Below the pieces are notes generated by a model, which was not told the DNA's origin, made no database searches, and saw only the letters and a list, made by a program, of their open reading frames with translations. A DNA stretch of 64,000 nt. It comes from a virus (Duplodnaviria; Caudoviricetes). The translations under genes and the position numbers were made by a program. How positions within the stretch are numbered: the stretch's first letter is position 1; every line of letters begins with the position of its first letter. Below are positions 11,397-47,521 of the stretch, piece after piece. The stretch spans positions 32,001 to 96,000 of the IMG/VR virus record IMGVR_UViG_3300012952_003952; one strand, written 5' to 3'.

Positions 11397-13343
11397 ATGT
11401 TTGGTAATTCATCGCCTTTTGAACAACCTCAAAAGCCAATTATTCAGATTCCAGCAGACGCTGATATAGTGTTTGTTTCAGACATGTTTGTTGAAGACTA
11501 TGTTGGAGGAGCTGAGTTAACTTCTGAGGCTTTAATAGAATCTTCTCCACTTAAAGTATTTAAGTTGCACAGTAAAGACGTAGATCTTAAATTATTAGAG
11601 CAGGGAGTTTCTAAATACTGGATATTTGGTAATTTTTCTGCTATGACTATGGAGTTAATACCTTCAATCGTAGCTAATATGAATTATTCTATTCTAGAAT
11701 ATGATTATAAATTTTGTAGGTACCGATCTCCTGAAAAACACGAATTCGAAACCGGTGAACCATGCGACTGCAAAGACGATATTCACGGTAAAGTAATTTC
11801 AGCTTTTTATTATGGCGCAAAGTCTTTATGGTGGATGTCAGAAAAGCAGCAAGAAATTTATACTTCAATGTATCCATTTCTAGATGAAAGAGAAAATGTA
11901 GTCCTCAGTAGCGTATTTAGTGATTCTTTCTTTTATGCTGTTAAGATACTGAAAGAAAAATATAAAGATAATGAAAGAAAGGGCTGGTTAGTTTTAGGAT
12001 CTAACAGTTGGATAAAGGGCGCTGACGATGCTGAGAAATGGTGCATCGATAATAACAAAGAGTACGAAGTAGTCTGGAACTTACCTTACGAAGAAATATT
12101 AGAAAAATTAGCTCAGTCTGAAGGTTTTGTTTATCTTCCAAAGGGCAATGATACATGCCCAAGAATGGTTATTGAAGCTAAGTTGCTTGGTTGCGATCTT
12201 GAATTGAATGAGTATGTCCAACATAAAGATGAAATTTGGTTTGACACACAAGATCCATTCGATACAGAAGCTTATCTTTACGCTGCTAGAGAAAGATTTT
12301 GGAATTCAATATTAGCAACAATGAATTATGTGCCAACTATATCAGGATATACCACTACTTTAAATTGCATCAAAAATGGATATCCATACGAAGCCTCAAT
12401 CAAGAGTATGCTTGGATTTTGTCAAGAAGTAATTGTAGTAGACGGTGGCAGTGACGATGGAACTTACGAACGGCTTAGAGAGCTAGAAAAAGAAGATAAT
12501 AGAATCAAGGTCAGTCTAGTTTTAAGAGATTGGAAAGATACAAGATTTGCAGTATATGACGGTTCTCAAAAAGCAGTTTCTAGAGATCAGTGTACCATGG
12601 ACTTTTGCTGGCAACAAGATGCAGACGAAATAGTGCATGAAGAAGACTATAAGAAAATTTTAGACATGGGAAGAAATTTCCCAAGACAATTCGACCTCTT
12701 ATCTTTACCAGTGATAGAATATTGGGGAAGCTCTGAAAAAGTTAGAGCTGACATCAATCCTTGGAAGTGGAGACTTTCTAAAAATAAAGATTACATAACT
12801 CACGGAATTCCAAAACAGCTTCGAAGAACCGATGAAGAAGGTAAGCTATATGCTCTTCCAGGCACTGATGGATGTGATTATATACACAAAGAAACATTTG
12901 AGCCAATACCGCACGCAGGATTTTATAACGAAGACATTCATAAAGTTAAGCTTATGGCTTTCGCTGGTGATGATAATGCATTTTTAGAGTATCAGGGTTG
13001 GTTTAATAGAGTTGTAGATCTTTTGCCAAGCGTACATCATTATTCTTGGATGGACATTGGAAGAAAAATTCGTACTTATAGAGACTACTGGTCTCAACAC
13101 TGGCAAAGTTTGTACGACATCCATCAAGAAGACACTCCAGAAAATAATATGTTTATGAATAAGTCGTGGAAAGACATATCAGAATCAGAAATAGACAAAT
13201 TAGCAGAAAAGCTTGCGCAAGAAATGGGCGGCTGGGTGTTTCATTCTAAAGTAGATTTCGATAATCCAACGCCTCATTTTTCTATAGAAAGAACTCAGCC
13301 AAAATTAGCTATAGAGCACTATATGAAGAAGGAAGAAAAGTGA
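11397..13343 (+). CDS. Bifunctional glycosyltransferase: GT-B (GT4-like) N-domain fused to a GT-A (GT2) C-domain
   Basis: GT-B signature DTCPRMVIEAKLLGC, then GT2 motifs EVIVVDGGSDDGT and WQQDADE. Confidence 0.8.
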   Translation: MFGNSSPFEQPQKPIIQIPADADIVFVSDMFVEDYVGGAELTSEALIESSPLKVFKLHSKDVDLKLLEQGVSKYWIFGNFSAMTMELIPSIVANMNYSILEYDYKFCRYRSPEKHEFETGEPCDCKDDIHGKVISAFYYGAKSLWWMSEKQQEIYTSMYPFLDERENVVLSSVFSDSFFYAVKILKEKYKDNERKGWLVLGSNSWIKGADDAEKWCIDNNKEYEVVWNLPYEEILEKLAQSEGFVYLPKGNDTCPRMVIEAKLLGCDLELNEYVQHKDEIWFDTQDPFDTEAYLYAARERFWNSILATMNYVPTISGYTTTLNCIKNGYPYEASIKSMLGFCQEVIVVDGGSDDGTYERLRELEKEDNRIKVSLVLRDWKDTRFAVYDGSQKAVSRDQCTMDFCWQQDADEIVHEEDYKKILDMGRNFPRQFDLLSLPVIEYWGSSEKVRADINPWKWRLSKNKDYITHGIPKQLRRTDEEGKLYALPGTDGCDYIHKETFEPIPHAGFYNEDIHKVKLMAFAGDDNAFLEYQGWFNRVVDLLPSVHHYSWMDIGRKIRTYRDYWSQHWQSLYDIHQEDTPENNMFMNKSWKDISESEIDKLAEKLAQEMGGWVFHSKVDFDNPTPHFSIERTQPKLAIEHYMKKEEK

Positions 13344-14074
13344 GCTTACAAAAAAGCAATAGATTTGTTTTTATTATGCCAGCATTTAATGCTATCGAAA
13401 CAATTAATAGAAGCATCTTATCAGTGTGGTTCCAAACACACCCCAACTGGAAAATCATTATAAGAGATGACCTTTCTACTGATGGTACCTTTGAAACCGT
13501 TCAAAATTTAAAAGCCCAACTTGGAATTTCAGATGAAAAAGTTAGTATTAAAAGAAACACAGAGAAAAAATGGGAAGTTGCCAACATTTTGGATATGCTC
13601 GACGATTGCGAGTCAGATGATATTATATGCCGACTTGATGCTGATGATTGGCTATGTGACTGTGATATTATTACTATATTGAACCACAGGTACAATGCAA
13701 TGGATGTCGACGCTGTTTGGACTAATCATCGATGGGGCTTCACAGGCAACAACATATCTTCTTTTCTTCCAAAAGAAGCAGATCCATATAAACACCCTTG
13801 GGTTTCTTCTCATTTAAAAACTTTTCGAAAGAAATTAATAGAAGAAGTAGATGATAAGAATTTTCGCGGTGAGGATGGAGAGTATTTTAAAAGAATAGGC
13901 GATCAAGCTATATATCTTCCAGTACTCAGAAATGCCGCAGGCCGATGGCACCACGAACCGATTTGCGCTTATCACTATACGATAGACATGAATCCTAAAA
14001 CCTTTCAGACTGAAGATGCAAAGTTTCAAAGAGATGAAGGGATATTCCTTCGCACACGTGGATACGTAGAATAA
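13340..14074 (+). CDS. Glycosyltransferase family 2
   Basis: FIMPAFNA, IRDDLSTDGT, RLDADDWL. Confidence 0.9.
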   Translation: MSLQKSNRFVFIMPAFNAIETINRSILSVWFQTHPNWKIIIRDDLSTDGTFETVQNLKAQLGISDEKVSIKRNTEKKWEVANILDMLDDCESDDIICRLDADDWLCDCDIITILNHRYNAMDVDAVWTNHRWGFTGNNISSFLPKEADPYKHPWVSSHLKTFRKKLIEEVDDKNFRGEDGEYFKRIGDQAIYLPVLRNAAGRWHHEPICAYHYTIDMNPKTFQTEDAKFQRDEGIFLRTRGYVE

Positions 14075-14078
14075 TTAA

Positions 14079-14984
14079 ATGAAATTACTAGTCAATAGAA
14101 AACCGGTAACAGGACCATGGGGTGGTGGAAACCACTTCATCAAAACTCTGCATGATAAAGCTAAAGATTATGATATAGACATTGTTCATCAGCTCCAAGA
14201 AGATCTAGATGGAATATTTTTAATTGATCCAAGGTATGATGAACTCGGCATTTCTATCAACGAAGTCATTAAATATAAAAATATTTTTCCAGACACTAAG
14301 ATCATCTATAGAGCAAATGAGTGTGATCAAAGGAAAGGAGAAAAAAATCAAATGGACCCGTGCATTAAAGCAATGGGTCAGATTTCAGATGCTTGCTTTT
14401 TTATCTCAGAGTGGATTCACAAATACCACATTGACCTTGATTGGAGATGCAGAAGAAATATTATTATTCCAAACGGAACCGATAAAAGTATTTTTAAACC
14501 ATCTCAAAGCAAAAAAGACAATAAGAAAATTAATTTAGTTACTCATCATTGGTCAAACAATTTTATGAAAGGCCACGATGTGTATGAAAAAGTTGATAAT
14601 TGGGTCAAGGATAGAGATGATTTTACCTTTACTTATATTGGTAGGAGCCATGCCCCTCTACCAAATTCAGACTTAATCGAGCCACTTTCAGGTCCAGAGT
14701 TAGGTAAGCTATTATCTTCATTTGATGTGTACATCTCAGCCTCTAGATGGGACCCTGGTCCTAACCACATTATAGAAAGTTTGGCTTGTGAACTACCTAC
14801 TTATGCGCATATAGATGGCGGTGGCGCTACAGAGTTTGTTGGTAATTCTCATGCATACAAAGATGCTGACGAGTTAATTTCTATTTTAGAGAAAAAAGAA
14901 TACCCCAACAACAAAAGATTTACTCCTAATGATTGGAACGAAGTAATAAAAGTATATCTTGAAAATATTTCTAGTCTATTATAG
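14079..14984 (+). CDS. Glycosyltransferase, GT4-like
   Basis: GPWGGG N-terminus, IIPNGTD, ASRWDPGPNHIIESLACELP. Confidence 0.85.
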   Translation: MKLLVNRKPVTGPWGGGNHFIKTLHDKAKDYDIDIVHQLQEDLDGIFLIDPRYDELGISINEVIKYKNIFPDTKIIYRANECDQRKGEKNQMDPCIKAMGQISDACFFISEWIHKYHIDLDWRCRRNIIIPNGTDKSIFKPSQSKKDNKKINLVTHHWSNNFMKGHDVYEKVDNWVKDRDDFTFTYIGRSHAPLPNSDLIEPLSGPELGKLLSSFDVYISASRWDPGPNHIIESLACELPTYAHIDGGGATEFVGNSHAYKDADELISILEKKEYPNNKRFTPNDWNEVIKVYLENISSLL

Positions 14985-14992
14985 AATTTAAA

Positions 14993-15781
14993 ATGTACGC
15001 TATATGTGGTGTTGGAAAATGGGGAACAAAAATACTAAAAGAGTTCCACAACAGTATAGAGTTTAAATACTTCTGTTGCAAGTCCGAAAGCACAGCAAAC
15101 AAAATAACTCAAGAATTTAAATTCATAAAAAGAGCATCTTTAGAAGAAATTTGTAGAGACAAAGAAGTCACCGATGTTATAGTTTGCGTTCCTATCGAAA
15201 AATTGTCGTATTTTGCGCTTAAACTCTTAGAGCACAATAAGAATATATTCCTAGAAAAGCCAGGAGCTGAGTCTTTTGAAAAAATAGAATCTATGATGAA
15301 AAGTTGCCGATCTGAAGTTTATGTAAATTATAAGTTTTTAAATCATCCAAAAGTTCAAACACTTAAAAAAGAAATCGAAGAAGGAAAGAAAATATGTTCG
15401 TTTAATATTGACTGGCAGAAATATGGTAGCTTTAACAACGACATTAGATTAAATCTTCTCACTCATATAATTTCTATTTTAAAATTTACGATGCCTAAAG
15501 AAGATTTCTACATGGAATACGCTAGTTTAAAAGATGATTCTCTGGTAGTGAGATGCTACTCTCAGAGTTGTAGAGGAAAAATATCTATTCTTCGTACTTC
15601 TAAAAAGAGAAAATTTTTATTTTTTCTCGAAGAAAAAAATGGCGCAACTAAAAAGATCGATCTGAATAGTGAAAATTTATTAAAAAATAGTGTAGAAAAA
15701 TATTTGAACAAAACAAATTTGGAAATTGGGTTAGATTTTTCTAGTGATGTATTAAAAGCGCTGGAGAAAATAAGAGCATGA
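14993..15781 (+). CDS. Gfo/Idh/MocA-family oxidoreductase
   Basis: Rossmann ICGVGKWG and the family motif IFLEKP. Confidence 0.75.
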   Translation: MYAICGVGKWGTKILKEFHNSIEFKYFCCKSESTANKITQEFKFIKRASLEEICRDKEVTDVIVCVPIEKLSYFALKLLEHNKNIFLEKPGAESFEKIESMMKSCRSEVYVNYKFLNHPKVQTLKKEIEEGKKICSFNIDWQKYGSFNNDIRLNLLTHIISILKFTMPKEDFYMEYASLKDDSLVVRCYSQSCRGKISILRTSKKRKFLFFLEEKNGATKKIDLNSENLLKNSVEKYLNKTNLEIGLDFSSDVLKALEKIRA

Positions 15782-16821
15782 AAATAGCTGTAATCGGTGC
15801 TGGGTTCTTTGGAGTTACTGTAGCTCTTAAGCTAGCTCAAGAAAATCATAAAGTTACTTTGTTCGACTTTCAAGACGATATTTTGACTTCTGCTTCTAGA
15901 ACTAATCAATTAAGATTACACAGGGGCTATCATTACCCTAGAAGCAAAGAAACTGTAAGATCTCTTTTAGACTCTCTTCCAAAATTTTTAGACTACTATG
16001 GTGCTGCTGCCATCAAAGATTATGAACATTACTATGCTATAGCAAAAGAAGGTTCTCGAGTAAACAAAGAAGATTACTTAAGTTTTCTAAATTCTTTCAA
16101 TCTAGAATATGAAGAAGTTACTAAAAATAATTTTGCTATAGACTCTTCTATGGAAGTGGTTATTAGGGCTAAAGAGTCTCTTTTAGATTATCACAAAATA
16201 TACGAAATTTGTAAAGAGAGAATTTTATCTTCAAGTCTAACGCTCGAGCTTAATACCGAGTTTAAAGAAGAGATGGTTCTTTCTTTTGATAAAGTCATCA
16301 ATTGTACTTATTCTTCTATTAATTCGCTGACTCCCTGGGAAAAAAGAAGAGAATATCAATTTGAAGTTTGTGAAAAAATATGCGTTCACCCACCTAAAAA
16401 TCTACAGGGTGTTAGCTTAGTCGTTATGGACGGACCATTTATGTGCATTGACCCCTATGGAAAGACTGGCAAGTCGCTTTTAGGAAATGTCGTCCATGCA
16501 ATTCACACTTCTAATATTGGACATAACCCTATTGTTCCTGAGCATTTAAAGCCTTATCTAAATAAGGGTATAGTAAACGTAAAAGAGATTTCTAATTTTG
16601 ATAAATTTATGCAATCTGGAAAAAATTATATTGCAAACTTTGACAGGTGCGAATATTTTGGATCGATGTTTACTGTAAGAGCTGTGTTGCCGTATAAAGA
16701 TGAAAGTGACGAACGCCCGACTATTGTGACTAAGATGGACAGTAATGTAATTAACATATTTTCAGGAAAAATTGACACTTGTGTGCAAGCAGCAGACGAT
16801 GTATTGGAGATAATAAAATGA
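15778..16821 (+). CDS. FAD-dependent oxidoreductase (DAO-like)
   Basis: KIAVIGAGFFG dinucleotide-binding motif; ASRTNQLRLHRGYHYPRS. Confidence 0.85.
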   Translation: MKIAVIGAGFFGVTVALKLAQENHKVTLFDFQDDILTSASRTNQLRLHRGYHYPRSKETVRSLLDSLPKFLDYYGAAAIKDYEHYYAIAKEGSRVNKEDYLSFLNSFNLEYEEVTKNNFAIDSSMEVVIRAKESLLDYHKIYEICKERILSSSLTLELNTEFKEEMVLSFDKVINCTYSSINSLTPWEKRREYQFEVCEKICVHPPKNLQGVSLVVMDGPFMCIDPYGKTGKSLLGNVVHAIHTSNIGHNPIVPEHLKPYLNKGIVNVKEISNFDKFMQSGKNYIANFDRCEYFGSMFTVRAVLPYKDESDERPTIVTKMDSNVINIFSGKIDTCVQAADDVLEIIK

Positions 16822-17744
16822 AAATTCATTTTTCAAATGTAAACTTTTCTTCTCGAACGGGCCCGAACTCATTCGCTAGCAGGCTAGCTGACCAATTCGA
16901 GAAAATGAATCATGACGTTATAGAAAGTGCCGATGATCAGTACGATATTTTCTTAGCATTTATAGAGCCAGCCTCACTTCCTAGAAAGGGTTCTAAATTT
17001 ATTCATAGGCTGGATGGAATATGGTTTAAACCAGAACAGTTTGAATCGCACAACAAACTTATAAAGTGGAGCTATCAAAGAGCTGATAGCGTTATCTGCA
17101 TTTCAGAGTTTAATAAAAATATGGCTGCTCACCACTGGGGATCTCGAGACAATGTCAAGGTTATAAATAACGGAATAGAGATAATTCCAGCCCCTGTTGT
17201 GAATAAGGAACTTCAGTCACGGCAACTAGAATATGATAATAGATTTATCTGTTCAGCAAATTGGCATAAACAAAAGCGCCTAAAGAGTAATATAGAATTT
17301 TTTAAAAAATTTAGAGAAGAGCATCCAGATCAAAATAGTTGTTTAGCAGTTTTAGGAAATTCACCTGATTATGTTATTGAAGACAGAGATATATGGTACG
17401 CTGGAAGCTTACCTCATGATCTATGTCTACAGCTATTCAGAGATTCTGATTGGATGCTTCACTTAGCATGGATCGATCATTGTCCAAATTCTGTTGTTGA
17501 AGCACTGTCACAAAACTGTGGAATTGTCTGCGCTGATTCAGGAGGAACAAAAGAAATTGTTGGTAATAACGGAGTGATTGTTCCGGAAATAGAACCGTAT
17601 GCGTATCAATTAGCAGATTATGATAGCCCACCAGATATCGATATATCAAAAATCGAACTCCCAGAAAATTTAGAAATAGATAACTCTATTTTAGATATTA
17701 GAAAAATAGCTGCAAGATATATCAAAGTCTTCAAGGACGCGTAA
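16818..17744 (+). CDS. Glycosyltransferase family 4
   Basis: VINNGI, WHKQKRL, DHCPNSVVEALSQNCGIVC. ATG 16818 overlaps the upstream stop (ORF track 16779). Confidence 0.88.
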   Translation: MKIHFSNVNFSSRTGPNSFASRLADQFEKMNHDVIESADDQYDIFLAFIEPASLPRKGSKFIHRLDGIWFKPEQFESHNKLIKWSYQRADSVICISEFNKNMAAHHWGSRDNVKVINNGIEIIPAPVVNKELQSRQLEYDNRFICSANWHKQKRLKSNIEFFKKFREEHPDQNSCLAVLGNSPDYVIEDRDIWYAGSLPHDLCLQLFRDSDWMLHLAWIDHCPNSVVEALSQNCGIVCADSGGTKEIVGNNGVIVPEIEPYAYQLADYDSPPDIDISKIELPENLEIDNSILDIRKIAARYIKVFKDA

Positions 17745-18595
17745 TGGGATTGGGAGGTTACTTATTTTGGACTGCTGTAGCTAGAGAAATAAGCGAAAAG
17801 TCGTTTGGAGGAAATTCTCAAATTAAGTTTCTTCCAATTGAAGCATGCAACAATGGAATAATTAAGTTAATAAAAAGCGAAATATTCGCTAATAATCCTA
17901 GATTTTTCCAAGAGTTTACCGATAGTGAGTTTGCTTTTCCTTTAGTTTTAAACAACCAGGAATTAAATTACTGTAAGAGAGATACTCCGGAAAGAGCTTA
18001 TCATCGATATGACAAGCATGTGGTTGCTCAAATTTGTGAATATTACGGAATACAAAATCCAAGAACTAACTGCGAAATATACTTTTCAGAGCAAGAAATT
18101 AATAAAACAGATAAACTGCTTGCTGGTCTAAAAGACTTTGTCGTCATTGAGCCTCAGTCTAATGATGAATATTCAAAAAATAAAGTTTACCCATTTGAAA
18201 AATGGCAAAATATAACAAACAAATTATTGGCCGAAGGAATCAGTGTAGTACAAGTGGGCAGAACGACGGGCGACAAAAATCTTTCTGGAGCTATTAATCT
18301 CACTGGCCAAACTAGTTTTAAAGAAGCTGCGCAAGTAATATCTCGTTCTAAAATGTTTATATCATCAGAAGGCGGCTTAATGCATGCAGCAAATGGCTGT
18401 GGAGTAAAATCTATAATAATTTACACCGGTTATATTCATCCAAGAATGACTGGATATTCTGAGAATATTAACATCTGGATAAACCACGGTCCTGAGCCGT
18501 GTGGAATGAAAATGAAGTGCATAGACTGCCAAACTGCAGTAGCAAACCACGACGAAAACGAAATTGTCGAACTTATTAAGGAACATTTAAAATGA
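17744..18595 (+). CDS. Glycosyltransferase family 9 (heptosyltransferase-like)
   Basis: NLTGQTSFKEAAQVISRSKMFISSEGGLMHAA matches the GT9 D/ESG.MH.A motif; adjacent to the ADP-heptose genes. Confidence 0.8.
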   Translation: MGLGGYLFWTAVAREISEKSFGGNSQIKFLPIEACNNGIIKLIKSEIFANNPRFFQEFTDSEFAFPLVLNNQELNYCKRDTPERAYHRYDKHVVAQICEYYGIQNPRTNCEIYFSEQEINKTDKLLAGLKDFVVIEPQSNDEYSKNKVYPFEKWQNITNKLLAEGISVVQVGRTTGDKNLSGAINLTGQTSFKEAAQVISRSKMFISSEGGLMHAANGCGVKSIIIYTGYIHPRMTGYSENINIWINHGPEPCGMKMKCIDCQTAVANHDENEIVELIKEHLK

Positions 18596-28603: not shown

Positions 28604-28607
28604 TGCT

Positions 28608-29357: not shown

Positions 29358-29364
29358 GGTTAAA

Positions 29365-31530: not shown

Positions 31531-31532
31531 AA

Positions 31533-33653: not shown

Positions 33654-33654
33654 A

Positions 33655-34116: not shown

Positions 34117-34158
34117 TAGAGGTAATATTTATAGCTAACAGCAGAGTCGAGGGATTGT

Positions 34159-35960: not shown

Positions 35961-35997
35961 AGTCTTTATTTGAGCTTTAAACTAATTGGAGATTTGT

Positions 35998-40788: not shown

Positions 40789-40802
40789 ATTTGGAGTTTT
40801 AA

Positions 40803-42440
40803 ATGAAGATAGCAGGACTTTGGTCAGGACACGACTGTTCTTTTTGCGTTTTAGAAGATGGAAAACCAGTAATTCACGCAGAATACGAAAGATACAATAG
40901 AGAGAAGTCACCACCGGGAGATTCAGCAAATTTTATGTTTGAGCGGTACCCTGAGTGGCCCTCAATAACTCATTATGCTTCTGTATATCCAAAAAAGAAG
41001 CTTGCCGAAAGAGAAGTATCTTTTTCAGTTCTAAAAAATCACGTTGAAGCCAACGGAGGAGAGCTTTATTTTTGCTCTCACCACAAAGCCCATGCCGCAA
41101 ACGCTTTTTATTCTAGTAACTTTGAAAAATCTATAATCGTTACTATGGATGGTGGTGGAGTAGAAGACGACCGAGGTGGAGAATCTGCATGCTCTATTTG
41201 GAGAGGAGATGGAACAGAATTAAAACACCTCAAAACTTTCCGGCCGCAAGAAATTAATATTGGCGGAGTTTGGACCCGAGTAACTAGATATGTTTTCAAA
41301 CTACAAAACGGCTGGCCTCGAGGAGGACAAGAAGGTTCCATTATGGCAATGGCTGCATTCGGAGATCCGGAACCCTGGAAAGAAGATTGTTGGAATTGGC
41401 TAACTAAAGACAAAATGTCAGCAGGTTTTAAGCCGCCGACCCAACCAATTGGAGCTACTTCTGACAAAGATCCAACTCACCCGTATTTAGAGCCGTGGGC
41501 AGCTCATGCTAGAATATCGGAGCAGAATCGATTTGATATAGCTGCAGGTTTACAAGATGCCACTGAAGCACTCATAAGACAGATTATTGAATATGCCTTA
41601 AGCTTCGATGCAGACATTGACTCTATTTGCTTAGCAGGTGGAGTAACATTAAACTCTGTTGCGATGGGTAAACTACTAAAATGGTTTCCAAAATTAAAAA
41701 GAGTTTATATACCTCCGGTGCCCTATGACGGTGGTCTTTGCATAGGCGCTGCTCAGGTATTGTGGCATGAAAAGTTAGGTAACCCAAGAATTACTTGGGA
41801 GCATAATTTTACTCCCTATCTAGGAGAAGCCTGGACAGAAGATCATTTTAAGCAAGTTCTAGAAGATCGAAAAGAAGAAATCGAAGTGTCAGATTCTAGC
41901 ACCGAAGATGTTGTTTCTAAACTAAAGGATGGAAACATTGTTTCAGTTTTCAATGGTGCTTCAGAATCAGGTCGCAGAGCTTTAGGAAATAGAAGTATTC
42001 TCGTAGATCCCAGGTCTTCAACCATGAAAGATACTATCAACGAAAAAGTAAAACACCGTCAATGGTATCGTCCATTTGCTCCATCCATACTAGAGTCCGA
42101 AGCTAGAGATTGGTTCGAAGATTACCAAGAAAGTCCATACATGCAGTTTGTTTTAAAGTTCAAAGAAGATAAAGTAGATTTAGTACCTGCAGTAGTCCAT
42201 TTAGACGGAACTGCGCGACTCCAAACAGTTAGAGAAACTGACAACAAGTGGTACTATGATTTTCTAAAAGCTTGGCAAAAAGATACTGGGATTCCAATTA
42301 TACTCAATACTAGTTTTAATGATAGGGAACCTATTTGCGAAAATGTAGAGCATGCTCTAAACTGCTTTTTAGGAACTAATATAGATTACCTCTATTTTCC
42401 AGAGTATAAAAAGATATTGAAGAGAAAGGAAACAGAATAA
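40803..42440 (+). CDS. Carbamoyltransferase (NodU/CmcH/TobZ family)
   Basis: GHDCS, HHKAHAA.AFY.S.F, MDGGG, LAGGV.LN, E.GRRALGNRSIL, K.RQWYRPFAPS, H.DGTARLQTV, LNTSFN. Confidence 0.93.
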   Translation: MKIAGLWSGHDCSFCVLEDGKPVIHAEYERYNREKSPPGDSANFMFERYPEWPSITHYASVYPKKKLAEREVSFSVLKNHVEANGGELYFCSHHKAHAANAFYSSNFEKSIIVTMDGGGVEDDRGGESACSIWRGDGTELKHLKTFRPQEINIGGVWTRVTRYVFKLQNGWPRGGQEGSIMAMAAFGDPEPWKEDCWNWLTKDKMSAGFKPPTQPIGATSDKDPTHPYLEPWAAHARISEQNRFDIAAGLQDATEALIRQIIEYALSFDADIDSICLAGGVTLNSVAMGKLLKWFPKLKRVYIPPVPYDGGLCIGAAQVLWHEKLGNPRITWEHNFTPYLGEAWTEDHFKQVLEDRKEEIEVSDSSTEDVVSKLKDGNIVSVFNGASESGRRALGNRSILVDPRSSTMKDTINEKVKHRQWYRPFAPSILESEARDWFEDYQESPYMQFVLKFKEDKVDLVPAVVHLDGTARLQTVRETDNKWYYDFLKAWQKDTGIPIILNTSFNDREPICENVEHALNCFLGTNIDYLYFPEYKKILKRKETE

Positions 42441-43291
42441 TGCGAAAAACTATTGGCATCATCGGCCAAGGATTCGTAGGATCTTCTGTTAAAGAAGGGC
42501 TAAAAAATTCTTACGAAATAGAAACTTATGATTTAATTTCTGATAAATCAACTGTAGAGTCAGTTGGAGAATTAGTTTGGAAATCTGACGTCATTTTTGT
42601 TTGTTTGCCGACGCCAATGAGAAAAGATGGAAGCTGTGATACTAGAATTATCGAAGGCGCTCTAAGAGAAATAGATAACTGCTTATCAGAAATGGGAAAA
42701 AGCAAATTATTGATTACTAAGTCTACTGTCCCACCAAACACTCACAATGATTGGAGCAGTAAGTACGAAAATTTGAATCTTGTATTTAATCCTGAATTTC
42801 TCACCGAAGCAAATGCTGCAGAAGATTTTAAAAATCAAAATAGAATAGTTTTAGGCGGCCACCCATCTAATTGTAGCGAAGCTCAAGAGATGTTTTCCAA
42901 AGTTTTTCCGAACGTTGATTATTTCTGCACAACTTTTGTTACTTCTGAACTAATAAAATATTTCATCAACTGCTTTCTTGCGACTAAAGTATCCTTTGCA
43001 AATGAATTTTATCAAATATGCGATTCACTAAATGCTGATTATTCAAGAGTAGTAGATGGAGCCTTATTAGATAAAAGAATAGGGACATCTCATTTAAGCG
43101 TTCCTGGACCAGATGGAGATTTTGGATTTGGCGGCCACTGTTTTCCGAAAGATCTTAACGCAATGATATATACGGCTAGTACCCTTGACATCTTTCCAAC
43201 TGTTTTAAAAGCTGCTAAAGCTAAAAATTCAGAAGTTAGAAACAACAAAGACTGGGAATTGATGAAAGGACGAGCAGTAAGTGATGATTGA
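42440..43291 (+). CDS. UDP-glucose/GDP-mannose dehydrogenase family, lacking the C-terminal domain
   Basis: IGQGFVG, KSTVPP, FNPEFLTE, GFGGHCFPKD; only 283 aa. Confidence 0.85.
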   Translation: MRKTIGIIGQGFVGSSVKEGLKNSYEIETYDLISDKSTVESVGELVWKSDVIFVCLPTPMRKDGSCDTRIIEGALREIDNCLSEMGKSKLLITKSTVPPNTHNDWSSKYENLNLVFNPEFLTEANAAEDFKNQNRIVLGGHPSNCSEAQEMFSKVFPNVDYFCTTFVTSELIKYFINCFLATKVSFANEFYQICDSLNADYSRVVDGALLDKRIGTSHLSVPGPDGDFGFGGHCFPKDLNAMIYTASTLDIFPTVLKAAKAKNSEVRNNKDWELMKGRAVSDD

Positions 43292-44174
43292 TAAAGATAA
43301 GAAAATTTTAGTAACTGGCGGTCTTGGATTTGTAGGTTCTAATTTAGTAGATGAACTAATTTCTTTTGGCTGTAAAGATATTACTGTTATAGACGATCTT
43401 TCTTCTGAGTCTTCATCTTCGTCATACATGAGAAGTGGCGTAAAATATTTCGAAAGAGATATTGTTGATTTACCTATCATGGAAAAAGAATTAAAAAACT
43501 TTGACGTTGTTTTTCATCTTGCTGCTTTAGCCAGGTTGCAACCTTCATTTTCAGACCCGACAAGATATTTTCAAGTCAACTCATTAGCTACTTTTTATCT
43601 TTTAGATTATTTAAGAAGAAATAATCCTGAAGCCAAGGTTGTTTACGCGGGTTCTAGCACCGCGTTTGGTGGAACACTTTTAAACCCGTATGCTTTTGCA
43701 AAACACACGGGTGAAGATATCTGCAGGCTATTTTCTAAAAATTATGACATGAACACTGCTGTTGCTAGATTTTTTAATGTTTATGGCCCACGCCAGCCGA
43801 TTACTGGAGAGTGGGCTACTGTTATAGGAAAATTTGAGCAACAGTATCTCAACGGAGAACCTTTGACTGTCGTAGGAGATGGAACTCAAAAAAGAGACTT
43901 CACACATATTTCAGATATAATTTCCGGATTAATATGTTTAGCTAACGGAAATCACAAAGGAGAAATATTTTCTCTCGGAACCGGTCAGAATTACCCTCTA
44001 TTTGAAGTAGCGTTTGCGTTTAAGGATAATATTAAGTTTATTCCTCCAAGACCAGGAGAGGCCAAAGAGACCCTTGCAGATATATCAGCTATGACAAACG
44101 CTACAGACTGGAAGCCTGAATCTAATTTAATGGAATACATAGCTAAATTTAAAAAAGAGAATCTATACAATTAG
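43281..44174 (+). CDS. NAD-dependent epimerase/dehydratase (GalE/WbpP-like)
   Basis: VTGGLGFVGS, HLAALAR, NPYAFAK, RFFNVYGPRQ, RDFTHI. Confidence 0.88.
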   Translation: MMIDKDKKILVTGGLGFVGSNLVDELISFGCKDITVIDDLSSESSSSSYMRSGVKYFERDIVDLPIMEKELKNFDVVFHLAALARLQPSFSDPTRYFQVNSLATFYLLDYLRRNNPEAKVVYAGSSTAFGGTLLNPYAFAKHTGEDICRLFSKNYDMNTAVARFFNVYGPRQPITGEWATVIGKFEQQYLNGEPLTVVGDGTQKRDFTHISDIISGLICLANGNHKGEIFSLGTGQNYPLFEVAFAFKDNIKFIPPRPGEAKETLADISAMTNATDWKPESNLMEYIAKFKKENLYN

Positions 44175-45022: not shown

Positions 45023-45043
45023 CAAATTACGATAAAGTTGCAT

Positions 45044-45072
45044 GGGCCATTTTTACCGAGTGGCCCTTTTTT
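45044..45072 (+). terminator. Intrinsic terminator
   Basis: GGGCCA / TGGCCC stem (45044-45066) followed by six T, 22 nt after the nuclease stop. Confidence 0.7.
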
Positions 45073-45110
45073 ATTAAAATAGATTAGTCTGGAAGAGGTT
45101 TTAACATCAG

Positions 45111-46367
45111 ATGAAAAAGAAAAAGAAAATATTACTATTATCTGACCACGCTCTAAGCACGTCAGGTGTAGGTACTCAAAGTAGACATTTAATAAATGGT
45201 TTGATGACTAAGTATCCGGGTGAGTGGAGCGTGAGGCAATTTGGAGCGGCTATAAAACATGAAAATTATGATGTAGTCCAAGTTACTGAAGACTTCATTA
45301 TAAAGCCAATAGACGGCTTCGGCAATCCAGATATGATCAGGTTAGCTTTAATTACAGAAAAGCCAGATATATTAATGTTGTTTACAGATCCTCGTTTTTT
45401 CGTGTGGCTCTGGGAAATGGAAGATGAAATTCATCAAATTTGCCCGATTGTTTACTGGCATGTGTGGGACAATTACCCATATCCAGATTTTAACACTCCG
45501 TTTTATGAATCAACAGATTTAATAAATTGCCACTCTCATCTAACTTATGAGATGGTAAGTGAAAAATTTCCGGAAAAAACTAATTTTGTTCCTCACGCAC
45601 TTCCGCCTGATTTGTTCTTCCCATTACCTAAAGAAGAAAAATTAAATCTAAAAGAACAAGCTCTTGGAAAAGATAAGAAAGACGACTTTGTCGTATTTTG
45701 GATGAATAGAAATGCTAGAAGAAAAAGAACAAATGATGTTTTAGAAGCTTGGAGCATTTTTGTTAAAAACCTTGAAGAAAAACATGGCAAACGCGACGTA
45801 ACTCTTTTAATGCATACAGACCCCAACGATAACGAAGGTCCAAACCTATACTCTACTGCTGATTTATTTGGAATACAAGACACCGTAATGTTTTCTACAC
45901 ATAGAGTTGGGTTTGAGCAAATAAACATGATGCATAACATATCGGATGCGTGCTTGAATATAAGTTACGCCGAAGGTTTTGGGTTGGCTACTTTAGAGGC
46001 CATGCAAGCTGGAACTCCTATCATAGCTCAAAAAACCGGTGGCTTAACTAGGCAAGTTGTTGATCACCGTGACGGTAGTGAAAATGGAGTTGCTCTAGAC
46101 GTAGATTTAAGAACTCTTGTAGGCTCTCAACAAGTTCCATACATTTACGAAGATTATTGTTCTAACGAAAACATTGCAGAGGCAATAATGAAATTGTATG
46201 AAAAAACACCAGAAGAAAAAGAAGAGCTATCTCAAAAAGTTTTAGATTATGTCAATTCAGAATTTTCTTTTGATAAAACGATAGAGCTTTGGCATGAAAC
46301 TTTAGTTGAAACTTTAGAAAATTGGGAAACAAGAAGAGACCGTAAATTCTTAGGAGAAATAAAGTGA
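45111..46367 (+). CDS. Glycosyltransferase family 4
   Basis: SDHALSTSGVG, NRNARRK, EGFGLATLEAMQAGTPII. Confidence 0.9.
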   Translation: MKKKKKILLLSDHALSTSGVGTQSRHLINGLMTKYPGEWSVRQFGAAIKHENYDVVQVTEDFIIKPIDGFGNPDMIRLALITEKPDILMLFTDPRFFVWLWEMEDEIHQICPIVYWHVWDNYPYPDFNTPFYESTDLINCHSHLTYEMVSEKFPEKTNFVPHALPPDLFFPLPKEEKLNLKEQALGKDKKDDFVVFWMNRNARRKRTNDVLEAWSIFVKNLEEKHGKRDVTLLMHTDPNDNEGPNLYSTADLFGIQDTVMFSTHRVGFEQINMMHNISDACLNISYAEGFGLATLEAMQAGTPIIAQKTGGLTRQVVDHRDGSENGVALDVDLRTLVGSQQVPYIYEDYCSNENIAEAIMKLYEKTPEEKEELSQKVLDYVNSEFSFDKTIELWHETLVETLENWETRRDRKFLGEIK

Positions 46368-47521
46368 AAAAACGCGTATTGTTTAGAGGGCCGTTGCTTA
46401 CACTTTCTGGATATGGAGTTCATAGCAGGCAAGTATTTCAATGGCTAGACTCTAGAGAAGATTTTGAAGTGAAGAGCCAAGTTCTCCCATGGGGAATTAC
46501 TCCTTGGATTCTTGACGGGAATAGGCAAAACGGCCTAATTGGAAAAATATTCGAATCTACTAACTTAGATAATTTATCTGGTTTCGACTACTCTTTTCAA
46601 GTGCAGCTTCCAAACGAGTGGGATCCTTCGCTAGCTAATTTTAATGTTGGAATAACTGCCGCAGTAGAAACAGATAGATGCAGCCCGCAGTGGATAGAAG
46701 CGTGTAATAAAATGGACCACATTGTAGTTCCTTCTGAACACACTAAAAAAGTTTTAGAAAACTCAGGCCCACTCTCGGTGCCAGTTACAGTAGTACCAGA
46801 GAGCTATCCGGACGGCTTAATTCCATCTGGAGAATCTTTAGGTCTCGATACTGATTTTAATTTTTTAATGTTTGGTCAGATTACTGGAAACAATCCTTGG
46901 AACGATAGAAAAAACACTTACTTTTGTCTTAAGTGGCTTTGCGAAATTTTTAAAGATGATCCTGACGTTGGGATAGTAATTAAGACAAATCACGGAAAAA
47001 ATACTAAAGTAGACAGAAAATTAACTCAGTCGATGTTAAAAAATCTCTTAAGCGAATGCAGGACAGGAGAGTATCCAAAAGTTTATTTGTTACACGGAGA
47101 ATTAACAGAAGAAGAAATAGCAGATGTTTATTCAGATGAATCTATAAAAGCTTTAGTGGCGCCTTCAAGAGGCGAAGGTTATGGTTTACCACTTTTAGAA
47201 GCAGCTGCATGTTCTCTGCCGGTAATAGCAACAAACTGGTCCGGACATCTAGACTTCTTAAATAAAGGAAAGTTTATAAAATTAAACTATGAACTAAAAC
47301 CAATCCATGAAAGTAGAGTAGATAACGCAATATTTTTAAACGGTTTTCGGTGGGCTGAAGTTTCAGAAGAAGATTTTAAAAAGAAGGTTTCTAAGTTTAG
47401 AAAAGCAAGCTCAATTCCTAAAGAATGGGCGAAAGATTTATCTTCTACTATCCGAGAAGAATATTCGCAAGATGCTATTTCTGAAAGATATAATTTGTTA
47501 TTGAGAGAATTAAATAAGTGA
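46364..47521 (+). CDS. Glycosyltransferase family 4
   Basis: GP....SGYGVHSR, RKN, GEGYGLPLLEAAACSLPVIAT.WSGH.DF. Confidence 0.9.
   Translation: MKKRVLFRGPLLTLSGYGVHSRQVFQWLDSREDFEVKSQVLPWGITPWILDGNRQNGLIGKIFESTNLDNLSGFDYSFQVQLPNEWDPSLANFNVGITAAVETDRCSPQWIEACNKMDHIVVPSEHTKKVLENSGPLSVPVTVVPESYPDGLIPSGESLGLDTDFNFLMFGQITGNNPWNDRKNTYFCLKWLCEIFKDDPDVGIVIKTNHGKNTKVDRKLTQSMLKNLLSECRTGEYPKVYLLHGELTEEEIADVYSDESIKALVAPSRGEGYGLPLLEAAACSLPVIATNWSGHLDFLNKGKFIKLNYELKPIHESRVDNAIFLNGFRWAEVSEEDFKKKVSKFRKASSIPKEWAKDLSSTIREEYSQDAISERYNLLLRELNK

What the first reader, a model, noticed from the sequence alone, without database searches (positions are those of the whole stretch)
11397..47521. ~36-kb phage glycan island with no membrane/export machinery: candidate cytoplasmic virion-glycosylation system
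Seen: 11 GT(-like) genes (12 domains: GT2/GT-A, GT4, GT9, GT29), heptose, deoxysugar and nonulosonate enzymes, and tailoring enzymes, wedged between a fibre gene and the sigma/baseplate block. None of these proteins has a multi-TM profile; I see no Wzx, Wzy, Wzz, ABC exporter, WaaL, GtrA/B or WbaP/WecA-type initiator. Established: LPS/capsule loci and seroconverting phages need such lipid-carrier components. Inference: the acceptor is soluble and cytoplasmic, most simply the phage's own structural proteins, giving a complex virion 'glycocalyx'.
Basis: partly seen in the sequence, partly recalled or inferred. Interest (0 to 1): 0.85.

Follow-up and report, generated by a model that had tools for sequence, protein, structure and literature searches.

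The report
Jumbo-phage sugar island without export genes
A marine jumbo phage carries a 36-kb block of about 40 soluble sugar-making and sugar-adding genes with no membrane or export parts; its core is conserved in all sampled relatives, which suggests (but does not prove) that the phage coats its own particle with sugars.

Summary
Window 11397-47521 is a co-directional block of about 40 genes. Eleven are glycosyltransferase-like: 9 pass Pfam cut-offs and 2 are weak. The block also encodes ADP-heptose, 6-deoxy/amino-sugar, nonulosonate and UDP-glucuronate enzymes plus tailoring enzymes. No gene has a multi-pass membrane profile. No phosphoglycosyl-transferase, flippase, polymerase or ABC permease turns up in this 242-kb record, in a 293-kb complete relative, or in 137 related loci.

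New here: the island has fixed anchors at both ends in every relative sampled. The 5' anchor is a 648-aa GT2-like protein. The 3' anchor is a PD-(D/E)XK nuclease followed by two GT4 genes that run straight into the baseplate genes. The middle varies, so the island spans about 8 to 36 kb, and this is the largest seen. The anchor GTs belong to almost purely viral families. The nuclease-GT4-GT4 triad recurs in cultured Flavobacterium phage Immuto, whose DNA shows no glycosylated base by published LC-MS.

The acceptor is not shown. I rate virion-protein glycosylation most likely (about 0.42). The rivals are host-surface remodelling through host carriers (0.25), DNA glycans (0.12) and a soluble glycoconjugate (0.10). 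This scan has reported similar "virion glycosylation islands" on other phage DNA.

The parts
5775..11165 (+). 1796-aa Gly/Ser/Thr-rich repeat protein, fibre-like. It is the hypervariable neighbour on the 5' side of the island.
   Evidence: The sequence shows repeated FFVSGS..GKDGKDRGVSxFGGDxVxSG units. It has no Pfam or PHROG hit. Relatives have one or two ORFs of 600-3021 aa here, or none.
11397..13343 (+). 5' anchor: a 648-aa protein with a GT2/GT-A-like C-half (about residues 315-640) and an N-half of unknown fold.
   Evidence: PF13704 scores 28.1 bits against a cut-off of 27.5. It is 53-82% identical in 56 IMG/VR loci and scores 830-866 bits in relatives whose hub protein is only 34-37% identical. 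Clusters nearest the N-half are 94-100% viral.
13340..14074 (+). GT2 glycosyltransferase. It usually follows the anchor gene in relatives.
   Evidence: PF00535 scores 60 bits. It follows GT2L648 in most loci.
14079..18595 (+). Variable block: a weak GT1-like gene (14079), a GFO/IDH/MocA oxidoreductase (14993), a Rossmann FAD/NAD oxidoreductase (15778), a GT4 (16779) and a GT9 heptosyltransferase-like gene (17744).
   Evidence: Pfam hits are. The GT9 gene is far below the WaaC/WaaF equivalog cut-offs (about 30 bits against 134-185) and has no BAHT-family hit.
18592..20666 (+). ADP-L-glycero-D-manno-heptose module: HldD (18592), the HldE adenylyltransferase domain (19535) and the HldE kinase domain (19881).
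   Evidence: TIGR02197 scores 303.8 against a cut-off of 274.6; TIGR02199 scores 163.5; TIGR02198 scores 121.
20656..27810 (+). Deoxy/amino-hexose block: a weak GT2 (20656), FdtA-like (21524), RmlB-like (21894), RmlA-like (22901), a truncated SDR (23626), an RfbH-like PLP enzyme (24432), a second RmlB-like gene (25745) and a PseC/DegT aminotransferase (26653).
   Evidence: Genes 22901-25748 have no orthologue in the close relative G001, so this is a cassette difference.
27812..32180 (+). GT2 (27812), PhyH dioxygenase (28566), GT29 sialyltransferase-like (29326), two ORFs with no family hit (29898 and 30916) and a PseF-like CMP-sugar synthetase (31533).
   Evidence: PF00777 scores 69.1 bits. 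TIGR03584 scores 60 bits. ORFs 29898 and 30916 have no Pfam or NCBIfam hit.
32164..35898 (+). Tailoring cassette: two short-chain dehydrogenases, a 4Fe-4S ferredoxin and a B12-binding radical-SAM enzyme.
   Evidence: Pfam hits are. The whole cassette is absent from G001.
35986..39673 (+). NeuB-like nonulosonate synthase (35986), a cupin (36848), a 101-aa ORF (37243), an SDR epimerase/dehydratase (37549) and a SAM methyltransferase (38576).
   Evidence: PF03102 scores 244.6 bits and TIGR03569 scores 255.8 bits.
39763..44174 (+). GT2 (39763), a NodU/CmcH-type carbamoyltransferase (40803), a nucleotide-sugar 6-dehydrogenase (42440) and an SDR epimerase/decarboxylase-like gene (43281). The last two belong to the conserved 3' core.
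   Evidence: UGDH and the SDR are present in the minimal 7.9-kb island of L119, and the SDR is 38.5% identical to a gene in phage Immuto.
44201..45022 (+). PD-(D/E)XK (Cas4/RecB-like) nuclease. It is not a glycan gene but always lies just upstream of the GT4 pair.
   Evidence: PF12705 scores 84.7 bits. It is present in 42/42 relatives. It is also conserved next to the GT4 pair in phages Immuto and Mel-JY01.
45044..45066 (+). Terminator-like hairpin with a T-run, between the nuclease and GT4a.
   Evidence: Nine pairs, five of them G-C, then TTTTTT. Found in only 4 of 29 distinct relatives' gaps.
45111..46367 (+). 3' anchor GT4a, a retaining GT-B glycosyltransferase.
   Evidence: PF00534 scores 56.5 bits. 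It is 63-83% identical across the clade. AF2 pLDDT is 87, and Foldseek's top matches are MshA and chlorovirus B736L. A profile search matches B736L at E 2.4e-12 over both domains. The nearest Atlas clusters are 87-100% viral. It is 32% identical to Immuto gp89.
46364..47521 (+). 3' anchor GT4b, a GT-B glycosyltransferase.
   Evidence: PF00534 scores 39.8 bits. AF2 pLDDT is 92 and the top Foldseek hit is B736L. Atlas clusters are about 100% viral. It is 29-34% identical to genes in phages Immuto and Mel-JY01.
47518..47820 (+). 100-aa protein with one N-terminal TM helix and a conserved acidic soluble domain. Its start overlaps the GT4b stop.
   Evidence: Hydropathy. It is conserved in 64 loci. 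Its function is unknown.
47795..53598 (+).
   Evidence: PHROG baseplate wedge hits for 51254 and 51751. The gene order is identical in 42/42 relatives. The 257-aa, 120-aa and 563-aa proteins have no PDB or Pfam hits.

Best explanation
The island is a self-contained cytoplasmic glycosylation system whose acceptor is most likely one or more of the phage's own virion proteins.

Shown: the phage encodes enzymes for several activated sugars. These include ADP-heptose, dTDP/CDP-type 6-deoxy-amino sugars, a CMP-nonulosonate, and UDP-glucuronate with its derivatives. It also encodes 11 soluble, acidic glycosyltransferases and tailoring enzymes for carbamoylation, methylation, radical-SAM chemistry and hydroxylation.

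Inferred: a clade-wide core lays down a conserved inner glycan on a conserved acceptor. This core is the 648-aa GT2-like protein, a GT2, UGDH, an SDR, and the GT4a/GT4b pair. The exchangeable middle cassettes then build a strain-specific outer glycan. The result would be a conserved-core, variable-periphery coat analogous to LPS core plus O-antigen, but assembled on protein in the cytoplasm while the virion parts are made. The acceptor, the linkage and the timing are inferred, not shown.
For: 1. No initiator, flippase, polymerase, ligase or ABC permease is encoded. This holds in the island, in the 242-kb record, in a 100%-complete 293-kb relative, and in 137 related loci carrying 1,795 ORFs.
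2. In 42/42 relatives with enough upstream sequence, the order nuclease-GT4a-GT4b-tm100-p257-p120-563-aa protein-gp25-gp6 is kept, although the 563-aa protein is only 33-83% identical. The 648-aa GT is 53-82% identical in 56 loci and always sits at the other end, usually after the fibre-like ORFs. So the system is a core feature of the lineage, not a sporadic auxiliary gene set.
3. From GT4a onwards the genes overlap or lie at most 22 bp apart up to the ORF just before gp25 (57 bp there), and stay tightly packed beyond. The array starts after a terminator-like hairpin.
4. GT4a, GT4b and the N-half of the 648-aa protein fall in cluster families that are 87-100% viral. The best solved relative of both GT4s is chlorovirus B736L.
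5. The nuclease-GT4a-GT4b triad recurs with further sugar genes in cultured phages of a Flavobacterium and a Microcystis, hosts with unlike envelopes. Published LC-UV-MS of Immuto DNA shows canonical dA, dC and dT, with only dG replaced, by fdPreQ1 (10.1101/2023.04.13.536721).
6. All 11 GTs are acidic (pI 4.9-6.2), including the acceptor-side N-domains of GT4a and GT4b. From general knowledge, this is unlike DNA-binding or membrane-interface GT-B enzymes.
7. There are precedents: mycobacteriophage virion glycosylation (Freeman 2023, cited in PMC12619734), giant-virus autonomous glycosylation clusters (PMC9614988), and two virion glycoproteins in jumbo phage XacN1 (PMC5852040).
Against: - No glycan or glycoprotein has been measured for this clade, and no acceptor protein or sequon was identified here.
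- In Immuto and Mel-JY01 the triad lies among replication genes (DNA polymerase, clamp loader), not virion genes.
- The constant linkage to a PD-(D/E)XK nuclease is unexplained by protein glycosylation.
- A conserved membrane-anchored 100-aa protein is translationally coupled to GT4b. This could place the enzymes at the membrane.
- Soluble GTs without TM segments are also the rule for LPS-core and O-unit assembly, so absence of TM helices in the GTs is not diagnostic.
- The published reading of such clusters in large marine phages is host-surface modification (PMC7824862, PMC12801897).
- Expression timing could not be established: no late-promoter motif is enriched.
Confidence: 0.42

Rival explanations
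1. Host-surface remodelling. The phage GTs and sugar-nucleotide enzymes act at the cytoplasmic face of the inner membrane on host lipid-linked intermediates (undecaprenyl-PP-sugar or lipid A-core). The host's own initiator, flippase or ABC exporter and ligase then carry the altered glycan to the surface. This would change receptors to block superinfection, stop progeny being lost on debris, or evade grazers.
For: This is the standard reading of sugar clusters in large marine phages (PMC7824862 section 3.4.10; PMC12801897). The gene content (GT9, ADP-heptose, RmlA/B, NeuB) is the vocabulary of LPS and capsule loci. Cellular LPS-core GTs likewise lack TM helices. A conserved membrane-anchored protein follows GT4b. 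Two variable GT-B enzymes (14079 and 16779) have a basic N-domain and an acidic C-domain, the bipolar pattern of membrane-associated GT-B enzymes. The hypervariable middle resembles O-antigen diversity.
Against: None of more than 100 island variants has ever picked up a flippase, polymerase, permease or initiator along with its bacterial-type cassettes. The anchor GTs are universal in the clade and belong to virus-specific families, not borrowed host families. The GT9 scores far below the WaaC/WaaF cut-offs. The triad occurs in phages of Bacteroidota and Cyanobacteria, whose envelope acceptors differ. The core GTs are acidic, including their acceptor domains.
Confidence: 0.25
2. DNA glycan hypermodification. 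Some or all of the GTs build an oligosaccharide on 5-hydroxymethyl-pyrimidines of the phage genome to evade restriction. The linked PD-(D/E)XK nuclease would act on unmodified DNA.
For: Phage GT-A and GT-B enzymes put mono- to trisaccharides, including heptose, on 5hmC. The GT-B ones resemble BshA and MshA, as GT4a does (10.1101/2023.12.21.572611). The genome has a thymidylate-synthase-family gene at genome position 187769-188401, within the cluster that earlier scan notes read as hmC modification. Every relative tested also has a TS-family gene. The conserved nuclease neighbour fits this reading, as does the placement of the triad among replication genes in Immuto and Mel-JY01. B736L is also a top HHpred match of T4 alpha-glucosyltransferase (PMC6024577).
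Against: Immuto carries the triad plus more GTs, yet its DNA shows canonical dA, dC and dT and no glycosylated nucleoside. The TS-family gene lies about 108 kb from the island's end, in a cluster that earlier scan notes (not checked here) say has its own BGT-like gene. T4 AGT and BGT are not among the top 50 structural matches of GT4a or GT4b. All GTs are acidic: GT4a has net charge -21 and the 648-aa protein -35. Eleven GTs and a nonulosonate pathway far exceed any known DNA glycan (trisaccharide at most).
Confidence: 0.12
3. Soluble glycoconjugate or secondary metabolite. The enzymes build a free oligosaccharide, an aminoglycoside-like compound or a glycosylated small molecule, possibly inositol-based, in the infected cell. 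It would serve as an antibiotic, signal, osmolyte or defence inhibitor.
For: TobZ/NodU-type carbamoyltransferase, B12-radical-SAM with ferredoxin, PhyH dioxygenase, aminotransferases and methyltransferase are typical of aminoglycoside and nucleoside antibiotic pathways. GT4a's nearest characterised enzymes, MshA and BshA, glycosylate small molecules: inositol phosphate and malate. Earlier scan notes report an inositol-3-phosphate synthase elsewhere in the genome. Iyer et al. propose a secondary-metabolite role for a second cyanophage cluster (PMC7824862). This reading would also need no membrane machinery.
Against: Eleven GTs, with four of them universal, is far more than typical small-molecule pathways use. 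The tailoring cassettes are the variable part, not the conserved part. Similarity to MshA/BshA is generic for retaining GT4 folds. No core scaffold synthase was found.
Confidence: 0.1

Closest known systems
Mycobacteriophage virion glycosylation (Che8, Corndog, Myrna; Freeman et al. 2023, Cell Host Microbe 31:1216, cited in PMC12619734)
   Same: Phage-encoded soluble GTs with no export machinery. The proposed product is a glycan coat on the phage's own structural proteins.
   Different: Those systems have 1-4 GT genes, rely on host sugar nucleotides, and the glycans were shown by MS. This island has 11 GTs and about 25 sugar-synthesis or tailoring genes, with a conserved-core, variable-middle layout, and no chemical evidence. 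The GTs show no detected sequence relation to those phages. Only weak GT4 hits to Streptomyces and Arthrobacter phages were seen.
Autonomous glycosylation clusters of giant viruses (chlorovirus Vp54 N-glycans; Mimivirus/Megavirinae fibril glycans; PMC9614988, PMC4691112)
   Same: A virus-encoded sugar-nucleotide pathway for rare bacterial-type sugars, plus many soluble GTs, arranged in clade-specific clusters. Glycosylation is independent of a membrane secretory route. GT4a and GT4b have chlorovirus B736L (PDB 3OY2) as their best or near-best solved relative.
   Different: Those are eukaryotic viruses with acceptors shown experimentally, and the acceptor of B736L itself is unknown. Here the virus is a tailed phage, identity to B736L is only about 17%, and the acceptor is unproven.
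'LPS/capsule' gene clusters of large T4-like cyanophages (P-SSM2, S-SCSM1, S-SCSM2R; PMC7824862, PMC12801897)
   Same: A large marine myovirus with a long co-directional block of epimerases/dehydratases, PfkB kinase, nucleotidyltransferases, cupins, carbamoyltransferase and many GTs. The content is polymorphic between relatives.
   Different: Those clusters are described as sporadic and are read as host-surface modifiers. Here the anchors are universal in the lineage. GT4b has no tblastn hit in any Prochlorococcus or Synechococcus phage record. The absence of export genes was tested explicitly here.
Phage DNA sugar-hypermodification gene clusters (Pyle et al., 10.1101/2023.12.21.572611; T4 alpha/beta-glucosyltransferases)
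   Same: Soluble phage GT-A and GT-B enzymes related to LPS or teichoic-acid enzymes. Heptose is among the sugars used, and the clusters sometimes lie near structural genes.
   Different: Those clusters have 1-3 GTs next to a 5hmC/5hmU-forming enzyme and give at most trisaccharides. Here the TS-family gene is about 108 kb from the island's end, and a cultured carrier of the homologous triad has unglycosylated DNA.
Bacterial Wzx/Wzy- or ABC-dependent O-antigen and capsule loci; seroconverting-phage Gtr operons
   Same: The same enzyme vocabulary (Rml, Hld, NeuB, DegT, GT2/GT4/GT9) and the same conserved-plus-variable logic.
   Different: The defining membrane parts are all absent: initiating phosphoglycosyl transferase, flippase, polymerase, chain-length regulator, ligase, and GtrA/GtrB/GtrC.

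Membership tests
Bacterial lipid-carrier surface-polysaccharide locus (Wzx/Wzy or ABC type) | Initiating phosphoglycosyl transferase (WbaP/PglC Bac_transf or WecA/MraY type) | tested here: not met
   PF02397 has no match at E<=0.1 in G000, G001 (100% complete), G002, G003, G004 or Immuto, while the control genomes respond. No protein with 10-11 TM segments exists apart from the tape-measure-like ORF.
Bacterial lipid-carrier surface-polysaccharide locus (Wzx/Wzy or ABC type) | Flippase, polymerase, ligase or ABC permease (multi-pass membrane proteins) | tested here: not met
   Hydropathy scans find none in the island, in the record, in complete relative G001, or in 1,795 ORFs of 137 related loci. 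The scan is a simple Kyte-Doolittle method, not TMHMM.
Bacterial lipid-carrier surface-polysaccharide locus (Wzx/Wzy or ABC type) | Nucleotide-sugar synthesis genes clustered with several GTs | tested here: met
Seroconverting-phage Gtr system | GtrA (about 120 aa, 4 TM), GtrB (bactoprenol GT with a TM anchor), GtrC (multi-TM) | tested here: not met
   There are no such ORFs in the island. The one 117-aa ORF with four TM-like segments (genome 228286-228639) has no Pfam hit at E<=0.05, GtrA included.
Phage-encoded virion glycosylation (mycobacteriophage type) | GT genes embedded in or contiguous with the virion structural gene array | tested here: met
   GT4a and GT4b run without a gap into tm100, p257, p120, the 563-aa protein, gp25 and gp6 in 42/42 relatives. 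The 5' anchor usually follows the fibre-like ORFs. The homologous triad in Immuto and Mel-JY01 is not in the virion module.
Phage-encoded virion glycosylation (mycobacteriophage type) | Glycans demonstrably attached to capsid or tail proteins | not testable with these tools
   This needs glycoprotein staining or MS on virions.
Phage-encoded virion glycosylation (mycobacteriophage type) | A recognisable acceptor tract or sequon on virion proteins that co-varies with the GTs | not tested
   An earlier scan note proposes an [ST][GA]S motif in the virion proteins of this genome. I did not test it. The fibre-like ORF is Gly/Ser/Thr-rich, but that is usual for fibres.
Phage DNA glycan hypermodification cluster | GT adjacent (within about 10 kb) to a 5hmC/5hmU-forming enzyme (ThyS-family hydroxymethylase or 5mYOX/TET) | tested here: not met
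   The only TS-family gene is at genome position 187769-188401, about 108 kb downstream of the island's end.
Phage DNA glycan hypermodification cluster | Glycosylated nucleosides in virion DNA | tested here: inconclusive
   This cannot be measured here. For the homologous triad in Immuto, published LC-UV-MS shows canonical dA, dC and dT with fdPreQ1 replacing dG. There are no data for this clade.
Phage DNA glycan hypermodification cluster | GT fold close to T4 AGT/BGT or to JGT/TarP-like GT-A | tested here: inconclusive
   T4 AGT and BGT are absent from the top 50 Foldseek hits of GT4a and GT4b. However, the top hit B736L is itself an HHpred neighbour of T4 a-gt.
GT9 LPS heptosyltransferase (WaaC/WaaF) or autotransporter heptosyltransferase (TibC/Aah, BAHT) | Score above the equivalog cut-off of either family | tested here: not met
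   PF01075 scores 58 bits, so family membership holds. TIGR02195 scores 31.8 against 134.6 and TIGR02193 scores 30.0 against 185.3, and no BAHT model hits. The acceptor class is undetermined.

The most novel reading that the evidence does not exclude
A whole lineage of marine jumbo phages (hundreds of IMG/VR contigs) builds a two-layer glycocalyx on its own virion entirely in the host cytoplasm. The inner glycan would be made by four universal, virus-specific GTs. The outer glycan would be strain-specific and made by swappable cassettes, including heptose, nonulosonic acid and carbamoylated or C-methylated sugars. This would be a phage counterpart of LPS core plus O-antigen and of giant-virus fibril glycans. 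The same nuclease-GT4-GT4 core would do the same job in cultured Flavobacterium and Microcystis phages.
Probability: 0.3. Interest if true: 0.85.

Novelty: new variant of a known kind. Interest (0 to 1): 0.62.

Why it matters
Large sugar-gene clusters in marine phages have been filed for twenty years as "LPS genes" that change the host surface, and this has not been tested. Two results here make the question sharper. The clusters never carry export parts in over a hundred variants. Their anchor enzymes are virus-specific and universal in a lineage.

If the glycan sits on the virion, complex glycosylation by a virus's own enzymes would not be limited to giant viruses and mycobacteriophages. It would be common among abundant ocean phages. 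That would bear on host recognition, particle stability, stickiness to marine gels, grazing and carbon flux.

The triad is present in two cultured phages, Immuto and Mel-JY01. This turns the question into a bench experiment.

Tried and rejected
- **Expression timing from promoters.** TATAAATA (the T4 late motif) occurs 7 times in the genome and never in an intergenic region. Enriched intergenic 8-mers are only TATAAT-like. Sigma-70-type scans of the island are at chance level (59 found against 57±9 expected, and 68 against 59±8). No early or late call was possible.
- **Terminator before GT4a as a conserved operon boundary.** A clear hairpin is seen in only 4 of 29 distinct relatives' gaps. A bipartite motif (ATATACTT, 13-17 nt, ATATGATTA) recurs there in distant relatives but occurs nowhere else in the 60 kb of G003 examined, in G000 or in G001. 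It is therefore not a general promoter class.
- **Acceptor class from structure.** The AF2 models of GT4a and GT4b are good, but Foldseek returns the generic retaining-GT4 set: MshA, BshA, B736L, glycogen and sucrose-phosphate synthases, and further down WaaG, SdgB and GtfA. This does not discriminate between acceptors.
- **The '12th GT domain'.** The N-half of the 648-aa protein has no PDB profile hit. hhalign against GT4b gives a probability of 0.5%. Atlas features give only a weak lead to Glycos_transf_1. It remains unverified.
- **Identity of p257, p120 and the 563-aa protein.**
- **Complex prediction on GT4b with the soluble part of the 100-aa membrane protein.** The job returned no verdict (score 0.00, controls not run). 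I do not use it for or against binding.
- **Megablast of the window against cultured phages.** There were no relatives, and the 563-aa protein has no tblastn hit in 50,697 phage records.
- **Moraphage paper (PMC12619734).** I checked it as a possible description of this lineage. It concerns a different group.
- **Host identity.** Not determined.

Full report
**What the window is.** The window is bases 32001-96000 of a single 241,978-bp IMG/VR virus record (38.8% GC). About 250 of 264 ORFs lie on one strand. CheckV rates the record 57% complete. Earlier scan notes call it an uncultured marine T4-like jumbo phage. Megablast finds no cultured relative. To the left of the finding lie a tmRNA gene, a PAS-like membrane protein, a tubulin/FtsZ-like ORF, PhoH, and a 1796-aa Gly/Ser/Thr-rich repeat protein that looks like a fibre. 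To the right lie three conserved small proteins, a 563-aa protein, gp25-like and gp6-like baseplate wedge proteins, and large virion ORFs.

**Checking the observation.** The stated ends, 11397 and 47521, are exact ORF boundaries. Pfam identifies eleven GT-like genes, of which nine score above the gathering threshold and two below it (14079 and 20656). The families are GT2/GT-A, GT4/GT-B, GT9 and GT29.

NCBIfam names the sugar pathways:
- HldD scores above its equivalog cut-off, and the two HldE domains are split into separate genes.
- The deoxy/amino-sugar genes are an RmlA-like gene, two RmlB-like genes, an RfbH-like PLP enzyme, a PseC-like aminotransferase and an FdtA-like isomerase.
- The nonulosonate genes are a NeuB-like synthase and a PseF-like cytidylyltransferase.
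- A nucleotide-sugar dehydrogenase is also present.

The tailoring genes are a NodU/CmcH carbamoyltransferase, a B12-radical-SAM enzyme with a ferredoxin, a PhyH dioxygenase, a methyltransferase and several SDRs. All GTs score far below every equivalog cut-off, so none can be assigned a specific reaction. One gene inside the range, a PD-(D/E)XK nuclease, is not a glycan gene. The N-half of the 648-aa protein could not be confirmed as a twelfth GT domain.

**Absence of membrane machinery.**
- A Kyte-Doolittle scan finds no island ORF with two or more TM-like segments.
- In the whole record the only large multi-TM protein is a 1592-aa tape-measure-like ORF. A 117-aa ORF with four TM-like segments has no GtrA or other Pfam hit.
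- Because the record is incomplete, I fetched a close relative that IMG/VR lists with terminal repeats and 100% completeness (G001, 293,409 bp). In it, 228 of 264 ORFs have homologues and the island is syntenic at 82,049-113,345. The scan gives the same result there.
- The monotopic initiator family PF02397, which a TM count could miss, is absent from G000, G001, G002 (96% complete), G003 (92% complete) and phage Immuto, while the control genomes respond.
- Across 137 related loci (1,795 distinct ORFs of at least 100 aa), none has five or more TM-like segments. The single ORF with four lies beyond the 563-aa protein, outside the island.

The absence is therefore a property of the lineage, not of one contig.

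**Anatomy across relatives.** A profile of the 563-aa downstream protein retrieved 80 IMG/VR loci. In all 42 loci with at least 5.5 kb of upstream sequence the order is nuclease, GT4a, GT4b, tm100, p257, p120, 563-aa protein, gp25, gp6. The 563-aa protein itself is only 33-83% identical across these loci. Gene tables of three more relatives agree and show different sugar genes upstream: ATP-grasp, PIG-L, APS kinase and a hexapeptide acyltransferase.

The 648-aa GT retrieved 56 loci at 53-82% identity, so it is better conserved than the 563-aa protein. It always sits at the 5' end, after PhoH, a small ORF and usually one or two very variable fibre-like ORFs (600-3021 aa). In about six loci no fibre ORF intervenes. 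In G002 and G003 both anchors lie on one contig.

Island length runs from 7.9 kb to 36.1 kb. The minimal version (L119) holds the 648-aa GT, a GT2, an SDR, the nuclease, UGDH, GT4a and GT4b. G002 has 16.4 kb, G003 has 17.0 kb and G001 has 31.3 kb. This window has 36.1 kb, the largest seen. Compared with G001, this phage has gained or kept the RmlA/SDR/RfbH cassette, the SDR-SDR-ferredoxin-radical-SAM cassette and the methyltransferase.

**Where else the core occurs.** tblastn of GT4b against 50,697 phage records finds full-length homologues only in Flavobacterium phage Immuto (160 kb) and Microcystis phage Mel-JY01 (190 kb). Weak GT4 hits also appear in actinophages. In both cultured phages the nuclease, GT4a and GT4b are again adjacent and are followed by more GTs, aminotransferases, a methyltransferase and an epimerase. 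There, however, the block sits among replication genes. Pairwise values against Immuto are 32% identity for GT4a (E 1e-67), 26% for the nuclease (E 2e-22), 29% for GT4b and 38.5% for the SDR. The nearest ESM-Atlas clusters of GT4a, GT4b and the 648-aa N-half are 87-100% viral, and one is from Nucleocytoviricota. A profile search of the PDB puts chlorovirus NY-2A B736L first for GT4a, aligned over both Rossmann domains (E 2.4e-12). Foldseek puts B736L first for GT4b and fifth for GT4a. B736L is a GDP-mannose-binding GT-B whose acceptor is unknown (PMC9614988).

**Weighing the acceptor.** Four readings fit soluble GTs without export genes.

1. *Virion proteins.* This is favoured by the lineage-wide conservation of virus-specific anchor GTs, by their physical continuity with the baseplate genes and proximity to the fibre genes, and by the clade-wide lack of export parts. 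It is also favoured by the acidic character of all GTs, including the acceptor-side domains of GT4a and GT4b. There are precedents in mycobacteriophages, giant viruses and jumbo phage XacN1 (PMC12619734, PMC9614988, PMC5852040).
2. *Host lipid-linked intermediates exported by host machinery.* This is the published default (PMC7824862, PMC12801897). It is not excluded, because LPS-core GTs are soluble too, and a conserved membrane-anchored 100-aa protein is translationally coupled to GT4b. Two points weaken it. The anchors are universal and virus-specific. The triad also occurs in phages of hosts with very different envelopes.
3. *DNA.* Pyle et al. showed phage GTs adding up to trisaccharides, including heptose, to 5hmC, and their GT-B enzymes resemble BshA and MshA as GT4a does. 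The genome has a TS-family gene and, according to earlier scan notes, an hmC-type cluster. Against this, Immuto DNA has canonical dA, dC and dT. The TS gene is about 108 kb from the island's end. The GTs are strongly acidic. Eleven GTs exceed any known DNA glycan.
4. *A soluble glycoconjugate or metabolite.* This is suggested by the aminoglycoside-like tailoring set, but those genes are the variable part of the island.

I put these readings at 0.42, 0.25, 0.12 and 0.10. The remainder covers mixed or unforeseen acceptors.

**What stays unexplained.**
- The constant nuclease neighbour.
- The membrane-anchored protein after GT4b.
- The function of the 648-aa protein's N-half.
- A locus-specific bipartite motif upstream of GT4a in distant relatives.
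- Expression timing.

**Novelty and verdict.** Sugar clusters in large marine phages and phage-encoded virion glycosylation are both known. Other windows of this scan have produced many similar "virion glycosylation island" notes. Four things are new here: the conserved-anchor, variable-middle architecture across a large uncultured jumbo-phage lineage; the tested clade-wide absence of export genes; the virus-specific nuclease-GT4-GT4 core shared with two cultured phages; and the size and chemistry of this example. Its interpretation is the leading hypothesis but remains unproven.

Noticed in passing
window 740-1108: ARAGORN calls a tmRNA gene with tag peptide ANNNYHFESARLAA, just upstream of the PAS-like ORF. 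The record has only two tRNAs (Met and Asn), near genome position 238-239 kb.
   Followed up: no
window 2179-3354: A 391-aa ORF has a sub-threshold Tubulin/FtsZ GTPase hit (PF00091, 26.4 bits against a cut-off of 33). It is 87% identical in the complete relative G001. It may be a PhuZ-like phage tubulin.
   Followed up: no
window 47518-47820: A 100-aa protein has one N-terminal TM helix, a conserved helical soluble domain (invariant E41, L44, D45, D48, Y51, P61, F63, D65, S66, R80) and an acidic tail. Its start overlaps the GT4b stop. It is present in 64 related loci. Its function is unknown.
   Followed up: partly
window 45023-45110, and the same gap in L038, L045, L053, L055, L063, L065, L070, L071, L079, L082, L083: The gap before GT4a is one of the few conserved intergenic spacers (50-96 bp). 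In distant relatives it holds a bipartite motif, ATATACTT, then 13-17 nt, then (A/T)ATATGATTA. In this window and in G001 it holds a terminator hairpin followed by AAAATAGATTAG. The bipartite motif was not found elsewhere in G000, in G001 or in 60 kb of G003.
   Followed up: partly
window 29326-29961: A 211-aa soluble protein has a clear GT29 (eukaryote/virus-type sialyltransferase) Pfam hit (69 bits, profile positions 57-271 of 272). It lies next to the CMP-nonulosonate genes. GT29 members are unusual outside eukaryotes and their viruses.
   Followed up: no
window 44201-45022; L086 11386-12327; L087 10441-11337: A PD-(D/E)XK (Cas4/RecB-like) nuclease with a C-terminal Cys cluster always lies next to the GT4 pair. 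This holds in this lineage and in phages Immuto and Mel-JY01. The reason for the linkage is unknown.
   Followed up: partly
window 5775-11165, and the same position in relatives: The fibre-like ORF is only 51% identical even in the close relative G001. In other relatives it is replaced by one or two unrelated-length ORFs (600-3021 aa) or is missing. This locus is a hot spot next to the variable sugar cassettes.
   Followed up: partly
window 47795-48568: A basic (pI 9.6) 257-aa protein is conserved in 69 loci. It has no Pfam, PHROG or PDB-profile hit, so that label is unverified.
   Followed up: partly
genome 228286-228639 (outside the window): A 117-aa ORF has four TM-like segments, the size of GtrA or SMR-type proteins, but no Pfam hit at E<=0.05. 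It is the only small multi-pass candidate in the record.
   Followed up: partly
L159-L165 (IMG/VR contigs up to 189 kb): A more distant phage group carries the C-half of the 648-aa GT as a separate gene of about 330 aa (42-44% identity). It lies near a PD-(D/E)XK nuclease and a UGDH, which suggests an older, differently arranged version of the core.
   Followed up: no
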